From: Cyanophora paradoxa CCMP329
Taxonomy: Eukaryota; Plantae; Glaucophyta
Reading direction: 5' to 3'
DNA: 64,000 nucleotides
NCBI GenBank assembly: GCA_004431415.1
Contig: QPMI01000564.1
Location: 1 to 64,000 of the forward strand
Below are positions 12,540 through 61,489 of this stretch, piece after piece (position 1 is the first letter of the stretch; each line of letters starts with the position of its first letter). Position numbers and translations under genes: made by a program. The notes under the pieces were generated by a model. The model was not told where the DNA came from and made no database searches. It worked only from the letters and a program-made list of their open reading frames with translations.

Positions 12540-15500
12540 GTGGTGCACGCGCGAGCGCTCGCGCGGGCGGCGGCGGCGGCGGCGTCGGCGTCGTTGACGA
12601 TCGCCGCGGATCTCAGCGTGGGCGATCGCCGCTGTACTCGGCGTTCTGGCCGCTGCGGGCGCCCGGCCACTCCCTTGCGAGTCAGACTGGCGCGATGCGC
12701 TAGCCGGCGCGTACCAGAAGACCAAGAGAATCGCCGTGTAGAGAGTGTAGAGCCAGTCGCCCACGAGGGGCAGAGACCGACTATCGGAGCGCGAAGCGCC
12801 TTGCGGCGCTAAGCGCGGTGGATAGATACGGGATGGCCTTTCAGCGATGCCCGCGGTTCTCTCGACGCTTCCCAGCGACGAGAGACGACAGTAATGCCTT
12901 GCGGCATTCAGGTTGGGATGTGTCTCGCGCGCGACTCCGTCCTGCGGGGACGGTGAACTCGCGCGGCGGGAACAGACCGGCGCAGCTGCGGGCTTCGAGG
13001 TGCCGTCGCAGTCGCGCTTACTAGTCGCGTCGCCACCTCCGGTACCACTCCTGCGTACCGGGGTGGCGGCGCGGTCCTGATCCCCCAAATCTGCATGCGT
13101 GCGCTCCTCCTCGCCCGCGCAGCGCATCAGCGGTGTACCTGTCGCGCGGTCTACACTACTGTGGTCTTCGCTTATGGCTGCGAGACCACCAGACCGCGTT
13201 CCAGGAGCGCCGTGGCCGCCCGGCGCAGGCCCACCCCGAAGGATGGCCGGGTCACTTTGAGCGACCCAGGGAGAGCGTAGCCGCCCTAGGAAGGCCGCTA
13301 CGCCCGACGCATGCTGATTTTTGGGGTACAGCATTCCCCAACGATGGCCGTGGCTACGTAGACGCGTTGATGGACGCGCATCGCGCGCAGGTTCCAGCGA
13401 GCTCTCCGGCTGCGCATCCCGTCTACACGCTTAGCCCAGTAGGGGCGGGCGTCAAATTCGCCCCTCGGGCCGAGCGGGATGCCGAGCGTGGACGTGGACT
13501 TGACCCAGCGGATCGGAATCGCTTGGGTCCATGCTGGGAGGGTGACCGGGTGGCCGGGCCGCTTTGTCGGTGCTGCGGCTCCCGTGAACATGCCTTCGGT
13601 TTTGCCGAGATTGAGCGAGGAGCCGTTGTACTTCCCTGCTTTCTGGTACTTAGCTATGGTTTTCTTAACTGGCAGACCGGGGTCTGGGCTGCGGGGATTG
13701 ATCTTGAGCGAGTGCGCTGCGTCGTCGGCGTATTGGACCAGCTTGGATTCGATCCCGGGGTCCCGAGGGGCGGGTACGCCTGTGATTTCGGGGTCCGCGA
13801 GGATGTCTCGCGTGGTAGGCTCTTGCTGCGTGTTAAAGAACATGCACGCGAATGGGTCGCCCTGGAGAGCGCTGCGCGTAACCGGGATGATGGTTGGGAA
13901 GATCTGCCCGTTGATCATAATTTTTGATCTAGCGCCTTTCGTGATAGCTCGGACGTCGGCGAGGAATTCGGGCGGGAAGCCCTGGACCGCTAGGACCCGG
14001 AGCGCATAGAGGTGTTCTACGCGGTCGTACGCTTTCTCGAAGTCGGTATTTAGTATCACGACATGCTGGTCCGTACGGTCCGCGTGACGGATGACGGCTT
14101 GCATCTGCCAGACGTTGTCTGCCCCAGTGCGGTCCGGCATAAAGCCCGTTTGGACGGAGCTGATGGTGTGCTGGCATGCGGGCGCTATGCGCTTCGCGAG
14201 AACCGCTCCGAGGAGGCGGCGGTCGATTTGCAGGAGGGTGATCGGGCGCCAGTTCTGGATTTTATCGCGGTCTCCTTTCTTATATAGCAGTTGGGTTAGC
14301 CCCGTGCGTTGGCGCTTCGATAGGGTGCCCAGCGCGCGCGCGCAGTTATAGCTTTCTGTGACTATCGGGCCGAGGATGTCCCAGAACGTGAGATAGAACT
14401 TTACGGTGAGGCCGTCCTCGCCCGGCGCTGTCGACTTATTCATCTCTTTTAGGCTTTCCTCGATCTCGCCAACCGTATAGGAGGCGCGCATCGGGGGGTG
14501 CAAGGGCGGGGGCGCTGTATCGAGGCAGCGGGATAAGAGCTCGGCCTCCTCACACGTGAGGGGGTCGGCGGGGGTGAGAAGGTGGGCGGTGCGCAGTTTC
14601 TCGACGACCGCCGGGAAAGCGGCGGCGGCTTCCGGCGTCACGTCTACGGGGCCCGAGGCTCCCGGTTCCGAAGACGGGCGAGCGCCTTCCGGCTCGGGCC
14701 CCGTGGGCTGCGGGTTCGGCCTAGCCGTTCCCTGGTGCGGGCGAGCGCCTTCAGGCTCCGACCCCGCGGTGGTGCCTGGGCGAGCATTGGAATGCTCCGT
14801 TGCCCGTGGTTCTTGGCGGCGGGCCGGGGCCGCCGGAGCCGTGGGCGGCGTGGCCGCCGGGAGGTCGGGGGGGAGCGGGCGTTGGGCCGCGAGGAGCTCC
14901 GTGTAGTATGCGCAGGCGTGCGCCGCCATGTCTTCCTCCGTCGTGGCCGCCGGGGTACCCTCTCGCGGGGGGTACGGCTGCAGCGAGCGCATACGGTTGT
15001 CAGCCGAGGAGTACTTAATATGACGGGCGAGCTCGGGGGGGACTGTGTGCACGTGCGCGAGGGAGCGCTCTAGGTGCTTGCGGGAGCTAAGAGCCGCGTC
15101 TGCGGCATCGAGCGCTGCTTCCTGGACGGTCAGGTAGCCCATATCGGCGACCGCGTAGTCTTCTTCGGTGGTGTCTACCTTCGCGTCTTGGAGCGCTTGT
15201 TCCGCGTCGCGCCAGAGGCCTGCGATCACTTCGCGGGCGTCTCGGACTTCCGAGTCAGCCTGGGGGCGGGTGCGGCGGGCGATCTCCCTGTATGCAGCGA
15301 AGAGCTCGTCGAGCCAGCGCTGCCACTCCGTGGTGCCGAGAGCCGGCTGGCGAGTGAGCGCTTCGGCCGTGCAGGCCCGCACGGACCGCTGGAACGGCGG
15401 GAAGTGGAGGATGCGGTCGTGGAGCCTGAAGCGGGCCGCTCGGGGCGCGATGATGGCGTCCGTATGGAGCCGCGCGTAGACCGCGTCGTGGTCAGGGCGC

Positions 15501-15877
15501 GGGGCCGCGCCCGCCGTGCGAAGGATACCGACGCGCTCCGCCGCGACGCAGAGGTCGGCGGAGAGGAGGGCGTAGTCCAGGCGCGCCGCGTTCTGGTCGA
15601 AGCGGTTCGTCTTGCGGTGCCAGCGCGTGTAGATGCGGTCTCGTGGCCGCCTGCGGCGATGTTCGTCGAACAGGTCCAAGTCAGCCATGAGATCGGACCA
15701 GTGCCCGAAGGGGGGCGGTGCGCCGGCGCGGCGGCGGCTTTCTAAATGCGGGAGCGCGTAAGCGTTTAGGTCGCCGCCTAGAGTGAGGGCGTCGTTCGGG
15801 GGAAGCTGGAGCGATTCGATCGCCTGGGTGACGCCTGCCGCCAGGCGTTTCTGCGAGGCTGCGTCATTAGGGGCGTA
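12540..15877 (-). mobile_element. Non-LTR retrotransposon (L1/Tx1-like LINE), 5' part cut off by element 1; 3' boundary approximate
   Basis: APE endonuclease plus reverse transcriptase ORF, with a frameshifted C-terminal region continuing below 13298. GC content drops abruptly after ~15900. Confidence 0.85.
13298..15877 (-). pseudogene. LINE ORF2 (APE endonuclease + reverse transcriptase), N-terminally truncated and frameshifted near 13335
   Basis: Endonuclease motifs YAPN, LGGDLN, RLDYALLS, PDHDAV. RT motifs APGEDGLT, NWRPITLL, QTGFMPDR, DFEKAYDRVEH, LQGDP, QYADD. The ATG-TGT at 15883-15878 comes from the inserted element, not the LINE. Confidence 0.92.
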
Positions 15878-16173
15878 ACACATAGAGAAAGCCCGCGTTT
15901 TATCCCTCGGCTAAGTTTAATTATATTTTGTTTATATTTTACCTATATTTATTGCATATTTTACGTATATTTATGTGTATTTATCCTTTATTCTTGTCTT
16001 TTATGTGCGTATTTCGTATAAATTACTAACGTAACCCTTACTGAAATTTAATTTATTCGTATCTCCGATGTATTTTACCTCTATCTCTCGTAATCATTTG
16101 TATTTGAGGTGGATTTTAAACTTATTTAAATTATATCACGCCTCCTGATAAAACGCGGGCTTTCTCTATGTGT
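15878..16173. repeat. Terminal inverted repeat/hairpin of element 1 (27-bp perfect arms, 242-bp AT-rich spacer)
   Basis: ACACATAGAGAAAGCCCGCGTTTTATC (15878-15904) is the reverse complement of 16147-16173. Confidence 0.95.
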
Positions 16174-16465
16174 GATATTACGCATTATCGTGTATAATGA
16201 TATGGAAATAATATGTGTATGCATTATAATGAAATACTTTGAAAAATATGTATTTAATTATACAAGAAATATGTATGAAATTATAATGAAATTCCATCGA
16301 AAAATAATAAAATGTTCTGTGGATTAAATGCGTATCGTATATGGAGCGGATATGGCGCGTTGTAAACAGCTACAATGTGCTGTAAGGAGCGCGTGACGTG
16401 TAATACAATAAGGATATTATAGTATTCTAAATAGATCTTGTGTTATTATAATGGTATTTTCTATG

Positions 16466-16556
16466 TGTAACAGGTGTAACAGGTTCATCCCAAACTTTCC
16501 CCTAGGAGGAGGTCGGCGGTTTGGGAGTTTGGGATAGACCTGTTACACCCGTTACA
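16466..16556. promoter_or_regulatory. Putative origin-like cassette A1: inverted tandem TGTAACAGG iterons
   Basis: TGTAACAGGTGTAACAGG, ~55 bp, then CCTGTTACACCCGTTACA. Repeated at 16698 and 28371. Function is inferred. Confidence 0.55.
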
Positions 16557-16697
16557 ACGTAAACAACTACAATGTGCTGTATGGAACGCGGGGCGTATAA
16601 TACAACAAGGATAATATATGATACTTTATGATTACTTATAGTATTCTTTATGACTGAGATTATGTTATTTTAATGGGTTCTTACTGATAATGGTATT

Positions 16698-16788
16698 TGT
16701 AACAGGTGTTACGGGTTCATCCCAAACTTTCCCCTAGGAGAAGGTCGGCGGCTTGGAACTTTGGGGAGAACCTGTTACACCTGTTACA
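16698..16788. promoter_or_regulatory. Putative origin-like cassette A2
   Basis: Near-identical direct copy of 16466-16556. Confidence 0.55.
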
Positions 16789-17268
16789 CTACACTGAAAA
16801 TACATAAATTAACCTGTTACATCTTCTTTTACCACTTATTACCGTGTCGGAAATCTCGATAGCTTATGTCTCTCCGTTTGCGGAGATCCACCAAAGATAC
16901 CTATTATCCTCTCTTCTATTAAACATGATATATTACATGTCTTTCGCTCCGCTAAAAGAAAAGATCTTTAAACTAAACAGTAAAATCAGTTTATTGAGTA
17001 ATTTATAAAAATAATTTGGTTGTTCATCAATAAACACTTACAGTAAACTGTTTTACTGTCTGTTCTATCGTTAACTCTTTCACATTTTGCGAAAACCTTG
17101 ACAATAAAACACTCAGGTAGCCTGATTTTATTGACAGTAAAAATGAAAGCCTCACTGTATATCGTGCGAAAAATGAAAAGCCCCGTGAGCTACACAAATT
17201 GATTTAAGGAAGTTGTGATATAGAGGGTTAAGAAAGAAAAATATTTTCTGTGTAAGAGATAAGTAACA

Positions 17269-19688: not shown

Positions 19689-19967
19689 ATGTCGCGTGCT
19701 GAAATGTTTAAGGAGATCTCCGATATCATGGAAGCCGCCGAATACTTCTATAAAGAAAACGATACCCTTTACCCTTCTCTGTCTCAAATTGTGGCGATCG
19801 GTTTTTTAGCTGATAGACCCGACCGACTGTATGCAAAGAGTGATGAAAACCACTTTTTCCACTATCAAAAGCAAACTTTAAAAAGAGGAAAGGTGGAATA
19901 CAACGTTAAAGCACTGTTTAACTTTGGCGGCGAGTTCATCCCTCTTATCGAATTCAAAAACCACTAA
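19689..19967 (+). CDS. Hypothetical viral protein (92 aa)
   Basis: The ~100 bp upstream is a near-duplicate of the region upstream of 17269. Confidence 0.7.
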   Translation: MSRAEMFKEISDIMEAAEYFYKENDTLYPSLSQIVAIGFLADRPDRLYAKSDENHFFHYQKQTLKRGKVEYNVKALFNFGGEFIPLIEFKNH

Positions 19968-20875
19968 TCATTACCTAACGCTAAAAATTCCAATTGGAAC
20001 GAATTATCGATACCGTTCATATCTACAACATCACCGTAATAATCACGAAACTCTACCGTTAACTCATTAATCACCAAATTACGATCGTTTATTTTTATGT
20101 ATTCGCCATGCTCTCCGCTATGGTAGATATACTTCCCGATGTCCTGACTTAATTGTAAACGCAAAATTGCGCCTTGGTTCTGTGGTTGCGATCGTGGAAC
20201 TATGTTATGGTTTGCCGCAAATGTGGCAATTTCTTTAATGTGCATATAAATGTATTGTTCAGCGTTCATATCCGCCATCTTTGGACTAACCCCTTTAAAA
20301 GCCATCGGTGCCGCTACTAACTCCGCTCCCTCGAATGTTATACCCCACTGTGGGTGATCCGGTGTTATCGGAGTCCCCGCATAAAATAAGATATTTTCGG
20401 GAGCATATAAAGACCTATTATTATCTATTATCTGTTCTGCGCTTCCTAATAATGTTGTTGCACTGAGACCCAATAACTTAGCTATCCTATTGTTTCCGGC
20501 GATGAGTTCAAAAGCATAATTACTATAAAACTCTAACTTGTATGTCGTCGGATTGTAGTATATCTTAAATAATATATTGTCAGTAACGGCATAATTTAAA
20601 CCATAATTATATGGCTGTGTCACCCCGAAGTGTCCTTGGTTTATGTTACCACTCGGTAACGGAAATACTTGCTGATTGACATAAACGCCATCAATATTAT
20701 ATCGTATGTAAATAAAATCGGTTCCTATTGAATTATAGATACTGTTCGGAATCTCAGCATACAAAACGCGACATTGCCGCGGTTTGGTTATTCGTCTTGT
20801 GAGTGCAACCCTATAAGAGTTTTCTTTTTGTCCTTGTTGTCGATCTCTACTATCGACATTGATAAGACGAATCAT
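19964..20875 (-). CDS. Minor capsid (penton-like) protein A
   Basis: N-terminal VDSRDR...YAEIPNSIYN and C-terminal DYYGDVVDMNGIDNSFQLEF, as in PLV/NCLDV single jelly-roll minor capsid proteins. Confidence 0.75.
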   Translation of the reverse strand: MIRLINVDSRDRQQGQKENSYRVALTRRITKPRQCRVLYAEIPNSIYNSIGTDFIYIRYNIDGVYVNQQVFPLPSGNINQGHFGVTQPYNYGLNYAVTDNILFKIYYNPTTYKLEFYSNYAFELIAGNNRIAKLLGLSATTLLGSAEQIIDNNRSLYAPENILFYAGTPITPDHPQWGITFEGAELVAAPMAFKGVSPKMADMNAEQYIYMHIKEIATFAANHNIVPRSQPQNQGAILRLQLSQDIGKYIYHSGEHGEYIKINDRNLVINELTVEFRDYYGDVVDMNGIDNSFQLEFLALGND

Positions 20876-20904
20876 TTTATTATATGAATATAGATTAAAG
20901 AAAC

Positions 20905-21915
20905 ATGCCGGTCAAATATGTCGAAGTTTCATCATTTAGACAGGCTCCTAATCTCGATGCGCCGACGTCTAAGTTTATCGCTGAATTACCAAAGATGTAT
21001 GAGAATGTAAGAGCTGTCCGACTTGTTTCGGCGGAATTCTATAACTCCATTCCTCTTATCAGCGGTGAAAGTGTCCCCGGAGATGTCACAGTTAATGATT
21101 CTTTCACTATTAATTTTAGTATCGCTAATTCAGCTATCAACTCTACCAATGCACCCGCTCCCGGTTTCGATGTTTGGCGCTCGATTCGTCCCGGTCAAAG
21201 TAGCGGAAGCTTAGTAATTAATACGCATCAGGAATTAGTAAACCGTATTAATACTCGGTTTACTGGTTTAACACCCGATCCTCAAATTAGGTGTAAATGG
21301 GATACCAAAAATAAACGCGTAATATTCTATGCTCCACATGAATTTTACATAGCATTCACAACTGCTAAGGATCCTTCTAGTTCAATGGCTGAAAAATCAA
21401 ACCGACACGGTCGTATGCTTGGACTCGATGCCGGAAGAGCCGGTAACCGTTTCATCAAATCTAACATTTACTCAACTGAATATGATTCAGTTTTTACCGG
21501 TGCTAATGTTCATGGTATCATCTCTACATTCCCTACTAAGAGTTGCAAAGATAACGTATTATTTGTAAGAGTAAAAGAACTGGGTGACCTCGTTCAATGT
21601 GCCGATGGTCTCCTATCTGGATACTTCCATAAACTCGTGGTGCAAGATAAAGACTTTGCGGAACACGTTGTTTATAACTCAACAGAAGCAAACCCGTTAT
21701 ATAAATATTATGGTAAATCATTCTCTATTTCTCAATTGTCTGTAGAAATTGTGAATGCTCAAAACGAATTAATTGATTTCGAAGGGCAACCTGTGCATTT
21801 AACTTTCGAAATCCGATATGGAAATGAGCCCGCCGGTGATCCTATTTATGAGTATTTCAAAATGCGGATGGCGGAAACGCATCCAAATTATCCGGTGATT
21901 TGCAATTTTGGATAA
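20905..21915 (+). CDS. Minor capsid (penton-like) protein B
   Basis: LPKMYENVRAVRLVSAEFYNS and LSVEIVNAQNELIDFEGQPVHLTFEI; paralogue of protein A. Confidence 0.72.
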   Translation: MPVKYVEVSSFRQAPNLDAPTSKFIAELPKMYENVRAVRLVSAEFYNSIPLISGESVPGDVTVNDSFTINFSIANSAINSTNAPAPGFDVWRSIRPGQSSGSLVINTHQELVNRINTRFTGLTPDPQIRCKWDTKNKRVIFYAPHEFYIAFTTAKDPSSSMAEKSNRHGRMLGLDAGRAGNRFIKSNIYSTEYDSVFTGANVHGIISTFPTKSCKDNVLFVRVKELGDLVQCADGLLSGYFHKLVVQDKDFAEHVVYNSTEANPLYKYYGKSFSISQLSVEIVNAQNELIDFEGQPVHLTFEIRYGNEPAGDPIYEYFKMRMAETHPNYPVICNFG

Positions 21916-21966: not shown

Positions 21967-23367
21967 ATGGACGTCACCACAACCCTCCAACGTCTTTCCC
22001 TCAAAGAGGCGCTAACCACCCCCGAAGACGCGAAGGCGTTCTTCCTCGATAACTCGCTTATGCTTGGTCTGGAATCGAAGACTAAACCCGTTCTCGTTAC
22101 TGTTAGCCCATCGACAACCTTCCCTAACAACGCTGCGCAACGAGTAAGTTTCAAACTTCCACGTTACAACTTTATCGGTAAGCTGGAACTCGCTTTCGAT
22201 CTAAGCGAAATTGCGGGTTTCATCGGTGATACCGATCTTGTTCGTAATGGTTATGTGCGCCCCGTCGGCGCTCTCGTAGAGCGTCTGGAAATCTCGTATG
22301 GCTCTTACCTTTTCACTGTGCCTTCTGATTTCCTCGCTCACTTCCCTCTGGTTTATTATTCGGAGGATCAGCTAGCGAAAAAGAAACGTTCGGCTGGTTT
22401 CCTACACGGCATCCCACAACACGGAACTAACCGACTTGGTGGGTCATTCTTTGTGGAAATCCCGGTGCCATGGTTAAATAGTTACCTACCCCTTGGCGCG
22501 CTCTCAGGTGAAATGGTAGTTACCGCATGGTTCCGTGACCCCGCTAAGGGTGGATTCATTGAGACTTCTTATGGTGGTCGCGCTCTTCCGGTTGTAGGTG
22601 GAACCGCTGCCGATCAAACCGCTAATGACGGTCTCGGAGACGCTACTTATGTAACCCTTGCTAATGTCGGTCAAAACATCACAACTGGAACCATTACCGG
22701 TCTGTCCATTCCATCATCTGCACCTGTGGATACTATTATGATCACCAACCCACGCCTTTACATGCATGCTGTCAATGTTTCCGATGAGCTGTTCGCTACG
22801 GTCATTGAGAAGGTTAAGACTACTGGTATTGCGATCCCGGCTATCGACATCGGCTACGTCGATGCTTTCGATGTTGCCGCCAACGGCAACAACCAACCCA
22901 ACCGTATTAACATTAGCCAAATGTCGGGGCTTGCTTTCGCTCTTCTATTCTCGGTTCGTGACTACCTTAAAACCGGTCAGGATAACAGCGGCTCCCACAG
23001 TGTCCTTAAAACATATGCGGACTCGAAGGATATCACATACACTGTGGAGATTAACGGACAGCGTCTTTATTCCACGGAGCCTATCCCACTCCTCAAAGGT
23101 GCGGAACTCATCGCTGATGCATTCAAGTGTTCGAATATGGACAAGGAAGCTAACCGCTATGTCCTGTCCGGTCTTCCGTTCTGTCTGGACGGAGAGAAGG
23201 CGATTCGTAACATCGCCCAAAGTGGTTATGTCGATCTAACTAACTCCTCATCAAGTTTCCTTACCCTCTACGTCCCACAAAACATGCGCCTTACTGTTAA
23301 CGTGCGCGCTCTCATGCACACTATGTTAATTTGTGATCGCGACGGTCTCAGGCGAGTCAATCTCTAA
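21967..23367 (+). CDS. Major capsid protein (probable double jelly-roll)
   Basis: 466 aa, beta-rich. VSFKLPRYNFIGKLEL resembles the NCLDV/PLV MCP N-terminus. Lies between penton and ATPase; homologue at 56806. Confidence 0.75.
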   Translation: MDVTTTLQRLSLKEALTTPEDAKAFFLDNSLMLGLESKTKPVLVTVSPSTTFPNNAAQRVSFKLPRYNFIGKLELAFDLSEIAGFIGDTDLVRNGYVRPVGALVERLEISYGSYLFTVPSDFLAHFPLVYYSEDQLAKKKRSAGFLHGIPQHGTNRLGGSFFVEIPVPWLNSYLPLGALSGEMVVTAWFRDPAKGGFIETSYGGRALPVVGGTAADQTANDGLGDATYVTLANVGQNITTGTITGLSIPSSAPVDTIMITNPRLYMHAVNVSDELFATVIEKVKTTGIAIPAIDIGYVDAFDVAANGNNQPNRINISQMSGLAFALLFSVRDYLKTGQDNSGSHSVLKTYADSKDITYTVEINGQRLYSTEPIPLLKGAELIADAFKCSNMDKEANRYVLSGLPFCLDGEKAIRNIAQSGYVDLTNSSSSFLTLYVPQNMRLTVNVRALMHTMLICDRDGLRRVNL

Positions 23368-23449
23368 TAAAGAATGTATGTGTTTGTTACCATTATTTAG
23401 TCATATTTCGTTATTTTTATCTGTCTTTATTCAGAAGATCTACAACACC

Positions 23450-24232
23450 ATGGATGATGTCCCCGAATTTAACGCTGGCGAAATGATAAAACCACCTTTT
23501 CGCGTCCTTGCAATCGGAAAATCGGCTACGGGTAAGTCGGAAGCGGTAAAGTATTGGTTAAAACAGTTACACGATCAAAAAAAGTTAGATGTCGTTTTAG
23601 TTGTAAGTGGAACCGCATTTAATCATTTCTGGAATAATGTAGCTACTATACAGCTCGGTAAATGGGATGCGCCTTACATCGCTAAACTTCTCGATGAAAG
23701 ACAAGAGAAAATAGAGAAAGGAGAACCTGTTAACCAATTGTGTGTAGTTCTCGATGATCTTTTAGATAATGAGTTAGTCGACCTAACCCGTGATAAAATT
23801 ATAGGCTCTCTTTACAGTTGGGGGAGGCATTCCCAAATTTCGATAATTTGCATAACTCAGAAACTGCGTAAGGTTTCTTCCACTATTCGCGTTAATTCGG
23901 ATTATGCAATGTTTCTTAGCGCCGCCAATCGCAAAGAACTCGAAGCGATTGAAGAAGAATACAATATAATGCGGGATAAAGACGCTTTTTATAAGATGTT
24001 TGAGGAATACGTGCATTCCTATCAGTTTCTCATTTGGTCATCCGCTGATTATTCGGTAAAGTATTATGTAGATAAAGCGGATCTCGTTAAAAACTTTGGA
24101 TTTCCGCGGTTCCATCGCAAACCTAAAAAGAAAGAAGATGAATTAAAACCACCTGAGAAGGAGGAAGCGCCAAAAGAAATTAAAAGCGCTATTCATACGA
24201 ATAAATTGATGCGATATAAGAGAGGACTTTAA
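23450..24232 (+). CDS. A32-like (FtsK/HerA) DNA packaging ATPase
   Basis: Walker A GKSATGKS, Walker B VVLDD, plus GRH, ITQ and IRVNSDY motifs. Confidence 0.9.
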   Translation: MDDVPEFNAGEMIKPPFRVLAIGKSATGKSEAVKYWLKQLHDQKKLDVVLVVSGTAFNHFWNNVATIQLGKWDAPYIAKLLDERQEKIEKGEPVNQLCVVLDDLLDNELVDLTRDKIIGSLYSWGRHSQISIICITQKLRKVSSTIRVNSDYAMFLSAANRKELEAIEEEYNIMRDKDAFYKMFEEYVHSYQFLIWSSADYSVKYYVDKADLVKNFGFPRFHRKPKKKEDELKPPEKEEAPKEIKSAIHTNKLMRYKRGL

Positions 24233-25927: not shown

Positions 25928-28267
25928 ATGGACAGCAAAAGTAAAACCCTGCTTACGAAACTCGCTAATTGGCTCCGCTCTAACGATGAGCTGGCGAAAA
26001 ACCTTCTGATTCCCGTCGATCCTGTCGAAAAGCTTCCGGCTTTCGGTCATAAGGAGGATACATGGAATTGGAAGAGATACGAAGAAGCGGTTAAGTCAAA
26101 CAAGTATGTCGCGTGGGGTATCCTCGCTAAAAACATCCTCTGTGTCGATTTCGATCAGGAAGAAGACTTTAACAAGTTCGAAGAACTCTTTCCTGACGAT
26201 TTTACCGCCGCTATTCCAATCGAAAAGACTAAGAAGGGCTACCATGTGTTCTTTGCACGCCCTCCTAAGTTTGATGAGCTGAAACTATTCGACAAAGCCG
26301 GAGCTTTCAAAGGCTACGAAAAGATCGATTTTAAAACAATTTGCTCTACCGGAACCGCTGGCGTTATCAATGTTTGCCCCTCTCCCGGTAAAACATGGAT
26401 TCGCGAGCCATGGGCTACGGGATGTGAGCTTATCGAGCCATCGGAAGCTTTCCAAAATTGGATGATCGAAAACTATAAACACAATGTTGTTATTAACATC
26501 GACAAAGCAAAGATTACAGGCAATGAGTTCTTAACCACTCTTAATGAGAAACTTATTGAAATTGGCTTTGATTTCCCTTCTATCATCAGTCAAACCGAAA
26601 ATGGCTATAACTTTACTGCTCAGAACAAAGGCGGAATATGCCCCTGCTGCAATAATACACATGATAAGAACAATTGGTATGTGATGAAAGCACAGGGAAA
26701 CGATAAGGACAAATTCGTGGTTTCTAATTACAGTTCCCGATGCAAAAAACTATTTGTTAACATCGTAACGAAAACAGAACAATATGTTAAGCTTACTGGT
26801 CTTATTGATCTTGCGATTGGATCTAATGGCGCTCATTATGATGTCGCAAAAGTAGCTTATGAAGTCCTGAAAGATGATTACCGCTACTCAAATAAGACAT
26901 GGTTCGAATTTGACACTAACTATGGTATTTGGGAGACTGACGAAACCTCAAAGCGTATTTATCTTGCTATGAGCTGCAAGGTTTGCGCGGCATTCATGAA
27001 TCGTTCCTATGAGCTTGGATTTAAAGCCATGAGAGACGAAGAAAACCGCGAATCCTTAGATGAAAAAAGTAAACTCGCTCTCAGTATCGCAAAGAATCTT
27101 AAACAGACTGCTTACCGCACTTCCCTTATGACAGACTTAACCGTTATGTTTAGTTGTCCTACCTTTTTCGAAAGATTGGACACAGTGCCTAACATTATCG
27201 GTTTCACTAATGGTGTTTTCGATCTTAACACTATGACCTTCCGTAAGGGAAAACCCGATGATATGGTTAGCAAGACCGTAGGCTACGAATTCATCGCTGC
27301 TGACCGTCAGAAAATCGCTAAGATTCAGTCCATCTATGCTGATATCATCGAAGATCCCGATGAGCGTAACTATATAATCGGGGCGCTTGCTTTCGCTCTC
27401 ACAGGTCGGACTGATATCCAAAAATTCAATTTCTGGTCTGGAAAAGGTGCTAATGGTAAATCGCTACTGCAAGAAATGGCTAAGAAAACATTCGGCGATT
27501 ACTACGGCTCGATCAGTATGAGCTACTGGACAAAGCCTAAAAAGAATTCATCAGATGCTACGCCCGATCTTGCCGCAATTCTTGGGAAGCGAATCGTATT
27601 CAGTAACGAAGCGGAAGATGGCGATAAGTTGCAAATCAGTAAGATTAAGGAAATTACAGGTGGTAACGAAATGAAGGTTCGCGCTCTCTTTAAGGATCCC
27701 GTCGCCTTTATTCCAATGTGTCAAATCTTCCTATCCACCAATGATAACCTTTCTCTCAGCAAAGCTGACGAAGCTATATTACGTCGGCTCATCTATTGCA
27801 CATTCAAGAGTGTCTTTAAGCCGAATCCTAAGGAAGGTGAAAAGAAAGCCGATATTACCCTAATGCATCTTCTCAATGACGACAAGTATAAAATGGCTCA
27901 AATGTCTATATTCTTGGACATGTTTAGAACGCAAGACCTTGCCGACCTAATGCAAAATCCGCCCCAATCTATTATCGATTACGGATCAGAATATTTCGCT
28001 GAAAATGATAAGATCGGTGAATGGATCAGAAATACTTATGAAAAGACAGGAAACCGCGACGACTTTGTTTCAAGTGATTCTATCATGAAGAAGTATAGAC
28101 AAGTGGATGATAAGGCGGAACCGACAAGCATCGGTAAACGGATGCGCGAGATTTTTAATGTTAAGTCTGAGTCTAAGCGTGAAAGGGGCGCGGTTATTCG
28201 TGGATACTACGGTATTAAAGCCATAATTCACCATAACGAATTTGTGGATGATGATGTAGAAGCGTAA
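25928..28267 (+). CDS. Prim-Pol-type primase fused to D5/P4-type SF3 helicase
   Basis: CVDFD and TKKGYHVFF (Prim-Pol); CPCC zinc-like segment; FTNGVFDL (D5_N); Walker A GKGANGKS; KEITGG and LSTND. Confidence 0.9.
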   Translation: MDSKSKTLLTKLANWLRSNDELAKNLLIPVDPVEKLPAFGHKEDTWNWKRYEEAVKSNKYVAWGILAKNILCVDFDQEEDFNKFEELFPDDFTAAIPIEKTKKGYHVFFARPPKFDELKLFDKAGAFKGYEKIDFKTICSTGTAGVINVCPSPGKTWIREPWATGCELIEPSEAFQNWMIENYKHNVVINIDKAKITGNEFLTTLNEKLIEIGFDFPSIISQTENGYNFTAQNKGGICPCCNNTHDKNNWYVMKAQGNDKDKFVVSNYSSRCKKLFVNIVTKTEQYVKLTGLIDLAIGSNGAHYDVAKVAYEVLKDDYRYSNKTWFEFDTNYGIWETDETSKRIYLAMSCKVCAAFMNRSYELGFKAMRDEENRESLDEKSKLALSIAKNLKQTAYRTSLMTDLTVMFSCPTFFERLDTVPNIIGFTNGVFDLNTMTFRKGKPDDMVSKTVGYEFIAADRQKIAKIQSIYADIIEDPDERNYIIGALAFALTGRTDIQKFNFWSGKGANGKSLLQEMAKKTFGDYYGSISMSYWTKPKKNSSDATPDLAAILGKRIVFSNEAEDGDKLQISKIKEITGGNEMKVRALFKDPVAFIPMCQIFLSTNDNLSLSKADEAILRRLIYCTFKSVFKPNPKEGEKKADITLMHLLNDDKYKMAQMSIFLDMFRTQDLADLMQNPPQSIIDYGSEYFAENDKIGEWIRNTYEKTGNRDDFVSSDSIMKKYRQVDDKAEPTSIGKRMREIFNVKSESKRERGAVIRGYYGIKAIIHHNEFVDDDVEA

Positions 28268-28370
28268 ATATAAATGAATTGAATGATTACTTTCTTACTA
28301 TTTTTTATAACCTTACTGTGTATGGTAAGAATTAACAATGTAACAGGTGGTTTTTTGGTTTTCAGTCTCA

Positions 28371-28461
28371 TGTAACAGGTGTAACAGGTCTATCCCAAAG
28401 TTCCGACCTCCGACCCCCCTCCTAGGGGAAAGTTTGGGATGAACCTGTTACACCTGTTACA
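28371..28461. promoter_or_regulatory. Putative origin-like cassette A3 (inverted relative to A1/A2), just downstream of the primase-helicase
   Basis: Reverse-complement copy of 16466-16556. Confidence 0.6.
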
Positions 28462-28578
28462 CATACCATTCTCAGTAAGACCCCTTATTAATATTATTTG
28501 TAGTGTTTTATTACTATAATCTGTAAAAATTGATCAAGATATTTAAGCATTTCTTTGTTTGACTATACGAAGTTATCA

Positions 28579-28860: not shown

Positions 28861-31800
28861 ATGCCCCGCCAAACTAATAGACTTATCAAAGAAAAGAAAA
28901 ATGAGATTCTCGGACTGTTAGGAACCCTTTTAGCCACCGGTGAAATCACAGAAGCGGAATATGATAGAGAAGCCGCCATTTTAGATCGGAAGCCGCGACT
29001 ACAACAACTTACCGATATCGCTAATGACCTCTACGATCGCATGCAAAGAATGGAAGACTTTATGGACGAAGGACAACGCTTAGGAGCGATTGAACCCGAA
29101 GTAGAAGATGGTGAGGCAATGAATCAGGCTTACTCGTGGCATTCTTACCGCGCAAGAAATCAAATAGTTGTGGATACTATCGATTATTTGGAACGCATCG
29201 CTACTAACCTTCCACAGCGAATTAGAACGAAGTTAGAACAACTCAGAGCCGTTAAAGTCCGTCTTACATTCGTTTGTCGGTTCGTTAAAGTAAGTAATGA
29301 ACGCATTTTTATTACTAAATACATTTACAGTGACTACTTTGTTATCACGCGATCCCGTAATATAAATACGGAATTGCGTAAAGCTCTACAAGAAATGCAA
29401 GAGCAAATGAAACAAGTAGATAGTTACCGTTTGGATCGCTTAGAGATCCTTAGGGTAGTTATCATGTCTTACGCACCGGTAGGTGGTTGCTATTTCTCTA
29501 CTCCCGAATGGATCGCAAGAAAGAAAGCAACCGTTAATGTTAAGAATATCGATGGACAAGATTGTTTTAAATATGCTATTTTGGCTCATCTACACCGAAA
29601 GGACATTAACCGCCATAAAAGCTATGATCCCATTCAATATCGCCGTTGGCTTAATGAACTGAACTTTAATAATATCGAATTTCCGGTAGCATGTGATGCT
29701 GATGTTATCGATCGATTCGAAGAACAGAACCCGGACTTATCGGTTAATATCTACGGTGCCGATAACGAAAAGGAGTCATTCTATCCGTTACATATGTCGA
29801 GCAATTCACGTAGAAAGAATAAGATTAACCTTTTACTCATTGAAAATACGGAGGAGAATAGAGGACATTATGTAGCTATCGTGTCTCTAAGTCGCCTCCT
29901 TAAAACCACGTTCGATAAAGCATGTGATGGACGCATTTATTACTGTGAAACCTGTCTATCACGTTTCCGATCTCAGGCGAAATTAGACCTACACATAGAA
30001 GCTAATCGGTGCATCGATTGGAGGGAAAGTAAAGGAAAATGTCCGAAACCTGATACTTACATGGAATTCGGATTAAAACACCTAAGAAAGACTGTATGGC
30101 TTCCTGTGATTTGTTACGTTAAAATCGAAGATCATTCGGTATCTATCGGAGCAAATAAAAGTAAACGTGAAATTAAAGCTGTGTCACTGAGAGTGGTAAT
30201 AGGAGAAGAGGTGGTAGCTTTTCATTTTGAGGGAGCCGATCCTTTGGGTTCGCTGTTCGCAAAACTCATAGAAATAAGACCGCATGTAGTGCAAACTCTA
30301 TTTAGAAATATTCCCATGCATCCACTCACAGAAGATCAGAAGGCGGAATATAGAACCACAAAACATTGTTATATTTGCTTGCAACGATTCACAGCCGAAA
30401 ACGTTTCGGTTCGCGATCACTGTCACCAAACGGGCGATTATATCGGGAAAGCATGCCGAAACTGTAACCTCCATAGACGAATCTCTAAACAAACAAAAGT
30501 AGCTATCGTGGTGGATCAAATGGACGAATGCGGACATGGGATATTCCGAAAGATTGCCCAACAAGACGACACACAACGTGTGGAAATTCTAAGTAAAAAT
30601 TTCGATCAATACCTTTTGCTACAATGGGGCATGTGGAAATTCATCGATGCATCACATTTTATGGATTTCCAAAGTGCAAATGTCGATGATCTTATGTTTA
30701 AATTCGAAGAATTCCGTAAATTGGCGTTCTCGCAATATGGATTAGATCCATGTCATTACGTTAGCGCTCCGGGTCTATCATGGGACGCTATGTTAAAACA
30801 TACAAAGGCAAAGATTGCACTTATCGATGATGTAGAGAAATACGAATTTATTGAAAGAGCCATAAGGGGTGGATTTGCCACAATGCCCACACGATATGCA
30901 AAGGTAGAGAATCCCGATGATCATATAGTTTTATTAGACGCAAATAATCTTTATGGTTATGCACTCAGCCAACCTTTACCTATTGGTGACTATCGATGGG
31001 AAGAAACCACAGAGGCACTAAAAGAAGTAGAAGGACGAAACGCATTTATTGAGGTCGATTTAGAATATCCTATTTCCCTCGAAGATCATTATGATTTTCC
31101 ACTTATTGTGAATAAAGAAGTGATCACAACAGATATGTTAGGTGAATACCAACAAAACCTATTATATATGACAGGTGAAAAGTTAACCAAAGATCCACGA
31201 CTTACAGCAACATTTACACCAAAGACTAACTATGTCATCTCACAACCTCTACTTATCTATCTTGTTAAAAAGGGTGTAGTCATAAAGGCGATTCATAAGG
31301 TGATCTCATTCGCTACGTCCCCTTTCATGAAATCTTACATAGCTCTAAATACAAGACTACGACACGAATCAGGGAATAGATTCGAAAGCGACTTTTTTAA
31401 ACTCATGAATAATGCGATATATGGAAAATGCTTAGAATCTTGTAGGGGTCGCTCTTCTGTAAAGATCGCCAATAGTGAGAAACTATGTAAGAAATATGCC
31501 GCAAGTCCACTTATCAAAGCAACCAATGTATTAAACGAAAACGCCGTAGCGTTTGAAATGTATTCGAAACATGTAAACTTAGATAAACCCGTAGCTATTG
31601 GTGCTTTCGTTTTGGATTTCGCAAAGTTACATAATTATCAATTCTTTTATGAGGTGGTAAAAAAGAAATGGGAAATGGCTAAGCTACTTTTCCACGATAC
31701 CGATTCGTTCTGTCTATTTCTGAAAACTGATAATTTAAATGCGGACATGAAAGCCATCGGTGAACACCTCGATAGGAGTAATTATAATCGCGATCATCAT

Positions 31801-32141
31801 TATTTAGTTTGTCGAATCGATTGACTCCGGGGAAGTATAAAAACGAATTCCCAAATGCAAAGATCTTAGAATATGTGGGTTTGAGATCGAAACTTTACGC
31901 TTTCAGAACTGAAACCTATGAAAAAATAAAAATGTCCGGAACAGCATCGAAAGAAGTCCATTTTGACGATTTTAAGAAATGTCTATTCGAAGGTATCACC
32001 AAAACAGTAACAGTAAGAAACAAGCGACGGCAAGACCACAGCCTATATGATTTGGAGAGTAGAAGGGTGGCGCTAAACCAAATCAATAGCAAAAGGAAGA
32101 TATCAAACGACGGCATTCACAGTATCCCATTTGGTGTCTGA
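28861..32141 (+). CDS. polB: Polinton/adintovirus-type protein-primed DNA polymerase B (one frameshift at ~31798)
   Basis: DANNLYGYALSQPLP, FKLMNNAIYGK, HDTDS and GLRSKLY motifs, plus the EndoVII-like RDHCHQTG...CRNCNL. Adding one base gives DHPLFSLSNRLTPGKYKNE, joining the two ORFs. Confidence 0.92.
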
Positions 32142-33610: not shown

Positions 33611-33629
33611 TTAATATATTAAAACATAA

Positions 33630-46900: not shown

Positions 46901-46972
46901 ACACATATAAAAACAAATATTATTATCCCTCGCGTTCCGCTCAGGATAATAATATTTGTTTTTATATGTGTG
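46900..46972. repeat. Terminal hairpin of element 2 (29-bp perfect stem, 15-nt loop)
   Basis: CACACATATAAAAACAAATATTATTATCC, loop CTCGCGTTCCGCTCA, then the exact reverse complement. Confidence 0.95.
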
Positions 46973-55486: not shown

Positions 55487-56905
55487 ATGCGCGAGTATCT
55501 CAGCATCAGTAGCCGTGATCGATCAGAGGGCTCGGCTCATTCCTATAAGGTGACCCTTCCAAAGCAATACCACAATGTGAAGAGCATCGCTGTGCGACAG
55601 ATCGAATTTTCCAACACGATTCCGACGGTTCCAAGCCCTCAATTCTATACTGAAATCGGGGAGACGAAAGCCGATGATGCTAATACGATTTTCATATCAT
55701 TTCCTTACCGATTTTCGAGTGGACAGCTCAATGGTGCCACTGAGCAAATAAGAGAAACACAAGCGACTGCAATATATGACGCTTACAAAGCCATAGATGC
55801 TGGCGACCAAGGCAACTATATACCGCCTGATTACCTAAACACTTTCAGAAGATATACCCGATACAGAGACGTAGCAATTACGATCCCTCCGGGCACATAC
55901 TCGACTGGAACCGACCTTGCCACTGCAATCGATAACATCTTAACGAAAAATGGAACTGGCAACTACATCAAGGATATGATCGACACAAAAATTAATCCAA
56001 GCTACGCATCGACAGGAGGAACCTTTTACCCGGTGGTGAGATGTCGTTTTGAGAGCACATTAAATGCTATATGCTTTTATTCGAGTGATTATGTCTACAT
56101 AGCTTTCACGAAATATGGACCGAGTAATGCCACTGCGTCTACTGCGAATGAAAGAAAGGTGCTCGCCTATCGCACGATGACTCTTCTCGGGTTTACATCG
56201 ATCAGAGAGAATATAATGATAGATCAATACAACGGATCGGGCTACACAGCCTTCGCTGGGAGCGGTGTCGTTTACTCAGCTGGTGATGCATTCCGCAATT
56301 ATAATTCGACGGCTCTGGTCTTAGGCATAGCCGGAGGCACTGCCCCTGATTATACACCGGATAATGCAATAGTTTTAAAGATCACAGAGCCGGACTGCTC
56401 GCTTTTTACGACATGCACCGAGGCTACTAATGGATTCCTCGCTAAGATCCCGATTTCGAAAGGCACAGCCTATGCGGATGCTGAGCTAATTAATTATGGG
56501 GCGGATGCTTTCACGAAATACTTTAACACCCGCCTCTCCTTTGATAGTTTAACCGTTCAAATTCTCACGGAGAGCGGTTATAGGTATTTCCTCGGAAGCT
56601 GTGAGCACACATTCATTTTGGAAATTACTATGGGAGTGGATGAGCCCGACGACGATTTACAGCGCATTGTTAATAAGGGATTCGCGAAAATGCTATATGA
56701 GGACTACCCGCATTGCGGCAATTTAACGAATGCGTTGAGCGGGGTGGCTGTAAAAATAATCCGTTCTTCTAAAATAAATTTCTCAGCGGAAGATAAAAAC
56801 GAAATATGGATCCCACGACCTCGCTTAGCCGCCTCACGCTCAAATCCGTCCTGGAAACCCCGGAGGACTACAAGAGCATGCTTTTGGATCGCGGATTTAT
56901 CGTAG
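55487..56905 (+). CDS. Penton-like protein B homologue (true stop probably near 56730)
   Basis: ISSRDR...LPKQYHNVKSI...IEFSNTIP and HTFILEI. The read-through overlaps the MCP gene, suggesting an indel. Confidence 0.72.
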   Translation: MREYLSISSRDRSEGSAHSYKVTLPKQYHNVKSIAVRQIEFSNTIPTVPSPQFYTEIGETKADDANTIFISFPYRFSSGQLNGATEQIRETQATAIYDAYKAIDAGDQGNYIPPDYLNTFRRYTRYRDVAITIPPGTYSTGTDLATAIDNILTKNGTGNYIKDMIDTKINPSYASTGGTFYPVVRCRFESTLNAICFYSSDYVYIAFTKYGPSNATASTANERKVLAYRTMTLLGFTSIRENIMIDQYNGSGYTAFAGSGVVYSAGDAFRNYNSTALVLGIAGGTAPDYTPDNAIVLKITEPDCSLFTTCTEATNGFLAKIPISKGTAYADAELINYGADAFTKYFNTRLSFDSLTVQILTESGYRYFLGSCEHTFILEITMGVDEPDDDLQRIVNKGFAKMLYEDYPHCGNLTNALSGVAVKIIRSSKINFSAEDKNEIWIPRPRLAASRSNPSWKPRRTTRACFWIADLS

Positions 56906-58254
56906 GTGTGGACAAACAATTCAAGCCTTCTCGTGTGGAGGTGCTTCCAATTGCGGATCCCGGCAATCTGTTCTCCTCTACTGGTGCTACCACTCGTGTG
57001 GTCTTCTATCTCCCTCGCTACAATTGGTGCAATGGTATTAGCCTCCAAGTTACCATTCCGTCGGCGAAGGCGCTGACTGCCATCGCCAAGACCTCGGCTG
57101 ACTGCTCGGCTGATCTATTCAATACTGGATTCGTCCGCGGGCTTCCTGGCTCGTTTGTTCAGCGAGTCAGCATTAAATACGGGTCGTATGAGCAAATTAT
57201 TCCGGCTGAGCGACTGGTAGATTACGCTTTCCTGGCTAACACTCCGGCTGAATTCGACCAAAAGAAGCGCAAGCATGGGCTGCATCTCGGACCGAAGGTA
57301 GAGGGCGGCAACCAAGCTGGCGGCATTTTTACCATGCGAATTCCGAGTTTCCTCGATGCTGGCGTGCCCATCGGTGCGCTCCCATCCGAAATCGCGGTCG
57401 AAGTATATTTCCAAACCCCTGCGCTTCTCGAAACTGCGGCGGTTCCTGGCGTTTACGCTCAGAATAACACGACTGCAATTACTGCTGCCAATTCGACTGA
57501 TGGCGAGACGACGCTTGCTGTTGCGGCTGCTTTCGGAAATATTAAGACCTTAGCCCACCCTAATGCCACTGCGATTTTCGATAGTGCGGCTCTCACACCT
57601 ACACCTGCTCTTGCGAATCTGGAAATGACGACCCCTCGTCTTATTATGGATGCTGTTAACATCGATGAGGAAACGATGGGCGAAATCATTACTCGTGTTA
57701 AGACCTCTGGCATCGCCATCCCATACACTGATATTCAGTTTGCGGATTATACCGGTCAAGCTCTCGGCTCCGGTCTCCGCCTGTCACTATCTCAAATTTC
57801 TGGACTTGTTTACGCACTTGTTGTCAAGATTCGCGACGAAAACACACTCGGCGATAATAAAGGAGGGCACTCTACTGTTCGCACCCTTGCTTTCGATGAT
57901 AATGTCGTGATGCAAGTCCTAAACAACAACAATTACCTATATTCTAACACTGGTGTCCCGCTGCAATCCGCGGCTATGGAGCTCGCCGATAAATTCAAGA
58001 TGACTAACTGGATCGATAGCAACAAGCGCCCCATTTACACTGGCTTCTGCTTTGCTCTCGATGGTAAAGCGGCGCTCAAAGGTGAGAAGGCGACTGGCTA
58101 CGTCGATCTAACACAATCAGCTTCAAGTTTCCTGCTGCTCACACCAAATGGCACGCCCCTCGCCACCTGGACAAAGGTCGGTGTTCAGATTTCGGCTTAC
58201 TGCCACAACATTCTTGTAATGAATGCCAATGGATTGTCTAGAGTGACGGCATGA
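56806..58254 (+). CDS. Major capsid protein (probable double jelly-roll)
   Basis: Similar to 21967 over its full length (LPRYN, KTSGIAIP, GYVDLT.S.SSFL). Confidence 0.75.
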   Translation: MDPTTSLSRLTLKSVLETPEDYKSMLLDRGFIVGVDKQFKPSRVEVLPIADPGNLFSSTGATTRVVFYLPRYNWCNGISLQVTIPSAKALTAIAKTSADCSADLFNTGFVRGLPGSFVQRVSIKYGSYEQIIPAERLVDYAFLANTPAEFDQKKRKHGLHLGPKVEGGNQAGGIFTMRIPSFLDAGVPIGALPSEIAVEVYFQTPALLETAAVPGVYAQNNTTAITAANSTDGETTLAVAAAFGNIKTLAHPNATAIFDSAALTPTPALANLEMTTPRLIMDAVNIDEETMGEIITRVKTSGIAIPYTDIQFADYTGQALGSGLRLSLSQISGLVYALVVKIRDENTLGDNKGGHSTVRTLAFDDNVVMQVLNNNNYLYSNTGVPLQSAAMELADKFKMTNWIDSNKRPIYTGFCFALDGKAALKGEKATGYVDLTQSASSFLLLTPNGTPLATWTKVGVQISAYCHNILVMNANGLSRVTA

Positions 58255-58328
58255 GGACTGTCGCGGGCAAAATTTGATGTCATTTTTAATCCTTTGTCTA
58301 TTTAAGGACAAGACGATTATAAGATTTA

Positions 58329-59051
58329 ATGGCGTATCTCGAACAAATGGAAGGGATCAGGCGAATCGCTTTGTGTGGAAAGCATGGCGAGGGCAAGTAT
58401 GCGCTTATAGATGAAGCCGATTATGATCATGTCATGAAAATAAGCAAGTGGTATTACCATAACCAACGGGGATATGCATGGGGTTACATTGCTGGTGTAA
58501 AGAAAAACATCGACATGCACAAATGGATTTTCGGACATCAACAAGGGCACTTTGTTGATCATATCAGTAGAGACAAACTCGATAATCGTCGCTGTAATCT
58601 TAGATTCTTAACACCGCAAGACAGCGTATTTAATACGGGTATGAGAAAACGAAACAAAACTGGTTTCAAAGGTGTTTTCCAAGAGAAAAGAACCGGTCGG
58701 TTCAGGGCAAATATTCAAAAAAGTGGTGTCCCATACAATTTGGGAACGTTTGATACAAAAGAAGAAGCTGCTGCCGCTTACAACCAAAAAGCAAAAGAGC
58801 TATTTGGAGATCTTGCTGTTTTGAATGAGGTAAACCCTGAAATTAAACCAAAACCTCCTCTTTACTCACTGAATACAAGTGGATTTCGTGGTGTGACTGA
58901 AACAGCGACTGGAAAATGGGAAGGATGCTTTTCATATAAGAAACAGCGGTGGCGAAAAGTGTGCAACACAAAGGAGGAGGCTGCACTTTTCTACAACTCA
59001 AAAGCCAAAGAAATTCTCGGTGATAAAGCGATCCTCAATGATGTTGAGTAA
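58329..59051 (+). CDS. HNH endonuclease with two AP2 domains
   Basis: VDHISRDKLDNRRCNLR; GFKGV...LGTFDTKEEAAAAYN; second SGFRGV...EEAALFYN. Confidence 0.92.
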   Translation: MAYLEQMEGIRRIALCGKHGEGKYALIDEADYDHVMKISKWYYHNQRGYAWGYIAGVKKNIDMHKWIFGHQQGHFVDHISRDKLDNRRCNLRFLTPQDSVFNTGMRKRNKTGFKGVFQEKRTGRFRANIQKSGVPYNLGTFDTKEEAAAAYNQKAKELFGDLAVLNEVNPEIKPKPPLYSLNTSGFRGVTETATGKWEGCFSYKKQRWRKVCNTKEEAALFYNSKAKEILGDKAILNDVE

Positions 59052-59107
59052 ATAGAGGGCTGTCGCGTTTCGTAATTTTTATATGTTTCTTATAAGGGAA
59101 AGCAAAT

Positions 59108-60031: not shown

Positions 60032-60054
60032 ATAAATTTCTCGCATAATGATAA

Positions 60055-60877: not shown

Positions 60878-60925
60878 TCCTTTTCTTTTCTCCAATATTT
60901 AATACGTTGTGCAATATTAGGGTCG

Positions 60926-61439: not shown

Positions 61440-61489
61440 GAAATACGACTGATAAAATATTTTCTCCGCTTATAGTAAGGAACGAAAAG

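What the first reader, a model, noticed from the sequence alone, without database searches (positions are those of the whole stretch)
15878..16173. Element 1 starts with a perfect ACACATA-led inverted repeat exactly where it cuts a LINE
Seen: the LINE frame stops making sense just before YAPN, and the first 27 bp of the insert are mirrored 242 bp later. The inner arm continues as TATGTGTG, as in element 2. Inference: a conserved fold-back terminus used for priming, resolution or integration, unlike the long AG-initiated terminal repeats of Polintons. The ACAC dinucleotide start would suit slide-back protein priming.
Basis: partly seen in the sequence, partly recalled or inferred. Interest (0 to 1): 0.85.

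Follow-up and report, generated by a model that had tools for sequence, protein, structure and literature searches.

The report
Long-loop fold-back end of algal provirus
A small DNA virus inserted in the genome of a likely algal host begins, exactly where it cuts a host retrotransposon, with a 27-base sequence mirrored 242 bases further in; a distant sibling virus has the same design with a 15-base loop, so the end of the free virus likely folds back on itself to be completed and repaired, a long-loop variant of hairpin ends already reported for related viruses.

Summary
The arms 15878-15904 and 16147-16173 are perfectly complementary (27 bp, 242-nt spacer). Contigs of public runs show the intact LINE continuing differently from 15878 on, and other host flanks joined at exactly that base. 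So this is a true end of a multi-copy endogenous Polinton-like virus (double jelly-roll capsid, A32 ATPase, D5 primase-helicase). It is not a MITE: contigs run through the inner arm into the element. Element 2 (46901; capsid 37% identical) has the same end in register: 10 of 27 pairs changed on both sides, none broken, loop 15 nt. Contigs show two more mirrored changes. No flip/flop spacer was seen. Best reading (0.5): an orientation-fixed fold-back end that completes or repairs the 3' tip, whose first base is the integrase joining point. The right end, target-site duplication and integrase were not found in the window. AC-type ends are known in Mavericks, and terminal palindromes were reported in Halocafeteria virophages/PLVs (2026 preprint). 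The scan also noted different-sequence palindromic PLV ends before, in this genome and in a fungus. New variant of a known kind.

The parts
13298..15877 (-). Host LINE ORF2 (APE endonuclease remnant + reverse transcriptase), cut just before YAPN; about 147 N-terminal residues missing
   Evidence: RVT_1 E 2.4e-19; relatives P0002/P0003 at 82/80% identity; intact continuation in contigs
15878..15904 (+). Outer arm; first base of element 1, joined to host DNA
15905..16146 (.). 242-nt AT-rich spacer (26% GC, T-rich top strand), no fold of its own beyond shuffles
   Evidence: 31 of 100 shuffles fold as well
16147..16173 (-). Inner arm, perfect mirror of the outer arm, followed by G
16362..16834 (+). 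Two subterminal repeat units, each with a CTACAATGTGCTG box and an imperfect palindrome of iterated short motifs (candidate origin, inferred)
19964..21915 (.). Two divergent ORFs, likely minor capsid proteins (by position and paralogy with element 2 only)
21967..23367 (+). [quoted passage not shown]
   Evidence: model pLDDT 67, pTM 0.73; Foldseek to iridovirus/PBCV-1 capsids, E 6e-18
23378..24232 (+). A32-like packaging ATPase
   Evidence: Pox_A32 E 5e-11
25928..28267 (+). Prim-Pol / D5-type primase-helicase
28323..28569 (-). Degenerate inverted copy of the subterminal repeat (83% over 28338-28494), without the hairpin; possible remnant of a right-hand terminal repeat
28861..32141 (+). pPolB-like DNA polymerase with an endonuclease-VII-like insert; frame stops at 31824, and a likely C-terminal piece follows in another frame (31932-32141)
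46901..46971 (+). Element 2 left end: homologous arms (28 bp; 29 with the flanking C/G), 15-nt loop
47166..48240 (+). Element 2 CTACAATGTGCTG box and three element-specific palindromic repeat units
56806..64000 (+). Element 2 capsid gene, HNH-AP2 gene, ATPase and PriCT-2/D5-type primase-helicase (runs off the window)

Best explanation
The 296-bp unit is the exact left end of a multi-copy endogenous Polinton-like virus, and in the free linear genome its 3'-terminal arm likely folds back onto the inner arm, so that the tip would be completed or repaired by copying one arm from the other, with the spacer keeping its orientation. Shown: the junction at the first A, several independent host flanks at that base, continuity into the viral interior, the same design in a distant sibling, and mirrored changes in both arms. 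Inferred: replication starts internally at the iterated subterminal palindromes with the D5 primase-helicase; the fold-back stem solves the end-replication problem (Streptomyces-like end patching or self-priming); an rve-type integrase, encoded beyond the window or by a sibling, joins the TGT-3' end to host DNA; and the same unit caps the unseen right end.
For: (1) True terminus. Contigs with other GC-rich flanks join at exactly 15878 in 4 of 4 runs (2 contigs each, agreement 0.58-0.65), and X5 shows a third flank joined to the variant arm. The 43-nt arm contigs of X10 start at 15878. (2) Contigs cross spacer, inner arm and interior unbroken in 4 of 4 runs (records 8, 16, 24, 32). (3) Element 1 against element 2, in register from the terminal A: 17 pairs same, 10 changed on both sides, 0 broken. 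Their capsids are only 37% identical and their loops are 242 and 15 nt. (4) Within the element 1 family, inner-arm changes 16161 T>A and 16164 C>G (X1, X5) mirror positions 15890 and 15887, and X5 shows an outer arm with exactly those two changes. (5) Both ends share the downstream box and iterated palindromes. (6) Published precedent: terminal palindromes next to target-site duplications, preferentially in elements with non-pPolB replicases, proposed to prime replication (10.64898/2026.07.28.741278, section 7).
Against: No experiment shows folding or priming. The right end, a target-site duplication and an integrase were not found in the window, so 'both ends' and 'rve' are inferred. The phase of the two variant arms on one molecule is not shown, because the contigs are short. 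Simple hairpin self-priming with terminal resolution would invert the spacer, and no inverted form was laid (table 5), so only an orientation-preserving version survives. Mirroring could also come from neutral arm-to-arm conversion, an alternative the Halocafeteria authors raise in their own terms. Element 1 also carries a pPolB-like gene. Only two element types are compared.
Confidence: 0.5

Rival explanations
1. The arms are two inverted protein-binding sites in duplex DNA (integrase or end-processing protein). Their perfect match is kept by incidental arm-to-arm conversion rather than by a functional fold-back.
For: The conserved blocks (terminal 7 nt, and TTATC plus CCTCG at the inner edge) flank a variable middle, as in binding sites. 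Loop length varies 16-fold. Both inner arms continue with G, which could be a base removed from the outer arm during integration (n=2, weak).
Against: All 10 variable positions are mirrored, with 0 broken pairs; binding alone would not require that. No integrase gene was found in the window to tie the sites to.
Confidence: 0.2
2. Protein-primed initiation by the pPolB terminal-protein domain with jump-back on the ACAC repeat, as in Mavericks and adenovirus; the inner arm only serves as a repair template.
For: Element 1 has a pPolB-like gene (phrog_1907 E 3.4e-8). An (AC)3A end motif is known in eel Mavericks, and repeated end motifs are tied to jumping-back (PMC8097293 passages).
Against: The AC repeat is only two units long. 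The pPolB lies beyond the internal inverted repeat copy, like an added module, and its frame is broken near the C-terminus. The part of element 2 in the window has a primase-helicase and no pPolB. Published terminal palindromes go with non-pPolB replicases.
Confidence: 0.15
3. The elements are one-ended: the hairpin exists only on the left (a circle junction or rolling-circle signal), and element 1 ends at 46900 with element 2 in head-to-tail tandem.
For: No second arm exists in the window even at 7 mismatches. From 15878 to 46900, minus the two repeat insertions, is about 19.8 kb, a typical PLV size. Tandem integration is published (10.64898/2026.10.13.758929 passages).
Against: A 52-codon open frame runs from 46899 and stops 40 nt before the next minus-strand gene, as if element 2 cut a gene of a viral neighbour (weak). 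No tyrosine recombinase or HUH gene was found. A published table lists rve in 85 and tyrosine recombinase in 0 for its glaucophyte row of 156 (PMC12220804 Table S6; I read 156 as the number of elements, and the host label comes from unchecked notes).
Confidence: 0.12
4. The 296-bp unit is a MITE that landed at the LINE/virus border.
For: Its size and arm-spacer-arm layout. One locus has only the first 46 nt between non-element sequence (loose end behind 15923 in 4 of 4 runs).
Against: No loose end behind 16173/16174 among the 17 rows of table 7, and contigs continue into the interior in 4 of 4 runs. The homologous unit heads element 2 with a shared downstream box.
Confidence: 0.03

Closest known systems
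Terminal palindromes of endogenous virophages (subtypes 1, 2, 5, 6) and PLV subtype 4 of Halocafeteria seosinensis (bioRxiv 10.64898/2026.07.28.741278; passages and section 7 read, supplements closed)
   Same: Palindrome at the very tip of an integrated small dsDNA virus, next to host DNA; associated with non-pPolB replicases; hairpin priming proposed.
   Different: There: 52-nt palindromes in the subtype shown, found with a gap limit of 10, within TIRs and next to target-site duplications. Here: loops of 242 and 15 nt, arms conserved in length and terminal motif between viruses with 37% identical capsids, and mirrored substitutions shown. Both-end presence and duplications were not seen here.
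Vertebrate Mavericks/Polintons with 5'-(AC)3A end motif (PMC8097293, passages)
   Same: AC-initiated end; pPolB-like gene; capsid and ATPase module.
   Different: ACACATA has two AC units, not three. No rve integrase or protease was found in the window. The passages read describe no second arm within one end.
Streptomyces linear replicon telomeres, end patching (PMC4513846, passages)
   Same: Works-like analogy only: internal origin, about 300-nt 3' overhang, terminal palindrome able to pair with an internal one.
   Different: Bacterial; needs Tap/Tpg, of which no homolog was reported; several tight G:A-capped hairpins instead of one long stem with an unstructured AT-rich loop.
Parvovirus/AAV rolling-hairpin ends (recalled)
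   Same: Terminal fold-back able to supply a 3'-OH primer.
   Different: No HUH Rep was found, no flip/flop spacer was laid, and the genome is a dsDNA virus with a double jelly-roll capsid.

Membership tests
Polinton-like viruses | [quoted passage not shown] | tested here: met
Polinton-like viruses | A32-type packaging ATPase | tested here: met
   both elements
Polinton-like viruses | Minor capsid protein | tested here: inconclusive
   no Pfam/PHROG name; paralogous ORFs beside the capsid gene in both elements; not folded
Polinton-like viruses | Own replicase (primase-helicase or pPolB) | tested here: met
Polinton-like viruses | Integrase (rve or tyrosine recombinase) | tested here: inconclusive
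   none among the ORFs scanned (32, 21, 12, overlapping); the elements may run beyond the window
Polinton-like viruses | Terminal inverted repeats at both ends | tested here: inconclusive
   only a degenerate internal inverted copy without the hairpin
Polinton-like viruses | Target-site duplication | not testable with these tools
   no genome held; LINE 5' half not in window; no TGT + 6-nt flank word downstream
Polinton/Maverick sensu stricto | pPolB | tested here: met
   frame broken near the C-terminus; the terminal-protein domain was not tested
Polinton/Maverick sensu stricto | rve integrase and maturation protease | tested here: inconclusive
   not found in the window
Halocafeteria-type terminal palindrome | Palindrome at the tip, adjacent to host DNA | tested here: met
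Halocafeteria-type terminal palindrome | Short loop (their screen: gap limit 10) | tested here: not met
   242 nt in element 1, 15 nt in element 2
Halocafeteria-type terminal palindrome | Present at both ends, within TIRs, next to a target-site duplication | not testable with these tools
   right ends not in reach
MITE | Host DNA on both sides of the arm-spacer-arm unit | tested here: not met
   tables 7 and 8
AAV-type rolling hairpin | Flip and flop orientations of the loop in similar amounts | tested here: not met
   no strand-changing joint, and unbroken spacer-arm-interior contigs in 4 of 4 runs; contigs drop rare forms, so only a common flop is excluded
AAV-type rolling hairpin | HUH Rep nickase | tested here: inconclusive
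   none in the ORFs scanned

The most novel reading that the evidence does not exclude
This virus lineage uses a distinct telomere: a 27-28 bp stem with fixed terminal and inner boxes closing a loop of any length (15 to 242 nt). The stem is recopied arm-to-arm at each round without inverting the loop, a eukaryotic-virus counterpart of Streptomyces end patching run by a D5 primase-helicase. Such long-loop ends would be common in Polinton-like viruses but invisible to short-gap palindrome screens.
Probability: 0.2. Interest if true: 0.75.

Novelty: new variant of a known kind. Interest (0 to 1): 0.47.

Why it matters
How linear Polinton-like viruses that rely on a primase-helicase copy and protect their ends is an open question. 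This locus gives a base-exact end, natural mirrored substitutions at two evolutionary depths, and a negative flip/flop test, which together narrow the models. It also shows that the loop can be far longer than the published screen allowed, so the trait may be under-counted. If the host label in the scan's notes is right, the host is a culturable alga and the end can be tested directly.

Tried and rejected
No whole genome is held, so no genome-wide census, right end or target-site duplication. No contig laid bridges the window's own LINE|element junction: depth at 15848-15873 equals the two LINE contigs that leave at 15877 (X10: 84 + 34.7 = 118.7). Contigs drop rare forms, so this shows neither a private insertion nor an assembly error. 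No RNA holder was listed. Contig depth in X10 puts outer-arm contigs at about 18-22 times two single-flank contigs, but the tool warns that depth is no copy number; this is a rough hint only. A terminal-motif scan of viral contigs gave 7 loci, 0 of 7 with a mirrored arm, so chance matches. The subterminal box in viral contigs and the arm in metagenomes gave 0 matches. Capsid relatives with DNA context: none confirmed in viral contigs or metagenomes; 6 protein hits without context, 3 of them looked up and unnamed. The first ORF after the end has no homolog. Rfam gave one mir-3145 match at 33 bits against a cut-off of 98, rejected as chance on a palindrome. The protein atlas did not answer. My first reading, a tyrosine-recombinase att site, was dropped: both arms sit at one end and no such gene was found. 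The repeat finder extension of the arms to 67 nt at 73% was not accepted as structure, since the spacer folds no better than shuffles. Passages of PMC12747079, PMC10120064 and 10.1101/2022.07.28.501842 gave nothing on such ends.

Full report
Observation. The first 27 bases of the AT-rich insert (15878-15904) are exactly mirrored at 16147-16173 around a 242-nt spacer. This exceeds chance (z -5.53, 0 of 100 shuffles; at most 14 bp in 200 shuffles). GC falls from 66% in the LINE to 34% in the first 1.7 kb of the insert. TATGTGTG follows in both elements and nowhere else on the + strand.

The breakpoint. The flank is a LINE ORF2 on the minus strand (RVT_1). Relatives at 80-82% identity carry 147 more residues before YAPN. 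In 4 of 4 runs laid on 15835-16215, two LINE contigs leave the window's sequence right behind 15877. The loose letters, translated by hand, match the residues before YAPN in P0002 at 8 of 10 for the X15 contig. The next LINE base differs from the window's, so the cut is exactly 15877|15878. The LINE 5' half is not in the window, so no target-site duplication could be read.

It is a terminus, not a MITE. In one search, two contigs per run carry unrelated GC-rich flanks joined at 15878 (4 of 4 runs, agreement 0.58-0.65). One of these loci is a 46-nt remnant. X5 adds a third flank on a variant arm. In contrast, none of the 17 loose-end rows lies behind the inner arm, and contigs run from spacer through arm into the interior in all four runs.

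What the element is. Downstream lie a double jelly-roll capsid protein, an A32 ATPase, a Prim-Pol/D5 primase-helicase and a pPolB-like gene with a broken C-terminal frame: an endogenous Polinton-like virus. Element 2 has the same gene core at 37% capsid and ATPase identity. The scan's earlier notes on this genome name the host as the glaucophyte alga Cyanophora paradoxa. I did not test this; the runs are coded as organism A.

The end is conserved as a design. Element 2 starts at 46901 with 28-bp arms and a 15-nt loop. In register from the terminal A, 17 of 27 pairs are the same, 10 are changed on both sides and none is broken. The terminal seven bases and a ten-base block at the inner edge are identical. 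Both ends are followed by AT-rich DNA, a shared 13-nt box and two or three element-specific palindromic repeats. The left-end alignment beats 300 of 300 mononucleotide shuffles, also without the hairpin; this is a lenient control for AT-rich DNA. Within the element 1 family, X10 holds two 43-nt outer-arm contigs (0 and 2 differences, similar depth). X5 shows the two outer-arm changes, and X1 and X5 show the exactly mirrored inner-arm changes, while X2 and X10 keep the window's letters. Phase on one molecule is inferred, not shown.

What is missing. No second arm of either element occurs in the window at up to 7 mismatches. An inverted, degenerate copy of the subterminal repeat follows the D5 gene but lacks the hairpin; the pPolB module comes after it. 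That layout recalls published PLVs with the primase-helicase next to the inverted repeat (PMC11296320, passages) and with second replicases bracketed by repeats (10.64898/2026.10.13.758929, passages). Element 2 probably cuts a gene of its viral neighbour (52 open codons from 46899; weak), so the right end of element 1 may lie beyond the window. No integrase was found in the ORFs scanned.

Mechanism. Perfect mirroring at freely varying positions is what pairing or templated copying gives, and more than two binding sites would need. Classical hairpin priming with terminal resolution would invert the spacer each round (established for AAV, recalled). One search shows no strand-changing joint and unbroken spacer-arm-interior contigs, so a common flop form is excluded. 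I therefore favour an orientation-preserving use. Replication would start internally; the 3' tip left single-stranded would fold onto the inner arm and be completed or repaired from it, as Streptomyces telomeres are patched (PMC4513846, passages; analogy only). An rve-type integrase would join the TGT-3' end. A published gene table gives rve 85, tyrosine recombinase 0 and AdoMet decarboxylase 66 for its glaucophyte row of 156 (PMC12220804, supplement row; I aligned the columns by hand). Every step after 'terminus with mirrored arms' is inferred; confidence 0.5. The rivals are a binding-site dyad (0.2), pPolB jump-back (0.15), a one-ended element (0.12) and a MITE (0.03).

Against what is known. 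Terminal palindromes in endogenous virophages and one PLV subtype, with a hairpin-priming model, are in a 2026 preprint (10.64898/2026.07.28.741278; passages and section 7; its supplements are closed and may list longer loops). Its screen used a gap limit of 10, far below 242. An AC-type end motif is known in Mavericks (PMC8097293, passages), so the AC start is not un-Polinton-like. pPolB domain structure is from PMC11071308 (passages). Searches listed no paper that, by title, abstract start or the passages read, describes these ends in glaucophyte PLVs or long-loop ends; the library lacks most subscription papers. The scan's notes record other palindromic PLV ends in this genome and in a fungus; none matched this sequence.

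Verdict. Observation confirmed; interpretation partly supported; a new variant of a known kind; interest 0.47.

Noticed in passing
window 15881-15883 (-): The element's first bases read ATG on the minus strand in frame with the cut LINE, giving an 861-aa ORF that starts MC-YAPN and lacks half of the endonuclease. Probably coincidence, but gene callers treat it as a protein (P0001).
   Followed up: partly
window 34596-44348 and about 17590-19083: A roughly 1.3-kb GC-rich unit lies in tandem (about 7 copies) and once alone inside element 1. Summed contig depth at 17549-17600 is tens of times that of the neighbouring bins, so it is probably a very high-copy host repeat with small hairpins.
   Followed up: no
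other locus, seen (window 15878-15923): In 4 of 4 runs one contig carries only the first 46 nt of the element between non-element sequence: a truncated or interrupted end.
   Followed up: no
window 45970-46900: AdoMet decarboxylase and DUF5710 genes lie just left of element 2, with a 52-codon frame that looks cut by element 2. Whether they belong to element 1 or to a third element is open.
   Followed up: partly
window 44945-45007 and 48339-48400; 44742-44808: A 63-nt motif recurs at 83%, each time after short tandem repeats, and a 20-bp-arm hairpin lies just upstream of the first copy.
   Followed up: no
window 58329-59051: An HNH-AP2 gene sits between the capsid and ATPase genes of element 2 but not of element 1.
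   Followed up: no
window 32765-34472 and 48579-49637: Two paralogous ORFs of element 1 share their first 120 or so residues with element 2's fibre-like protein, which ends in a Peptidase_S74 chaperone domain.
   Followed up: partly
window 3018-12399: An array of about 28 GC-rich units of about 318 bp lies beyond the LINE's 3' side.
   Followed up: no
window 15979: In 4 of 4 runs all contig depth has one extra T here (table 4), so the spacer may be 243 nt and the window may carry small indel errors. The repeat at about 640-1180 / 2130-2700 also differs by single-base indels (seen by eye).
   Followed up: no
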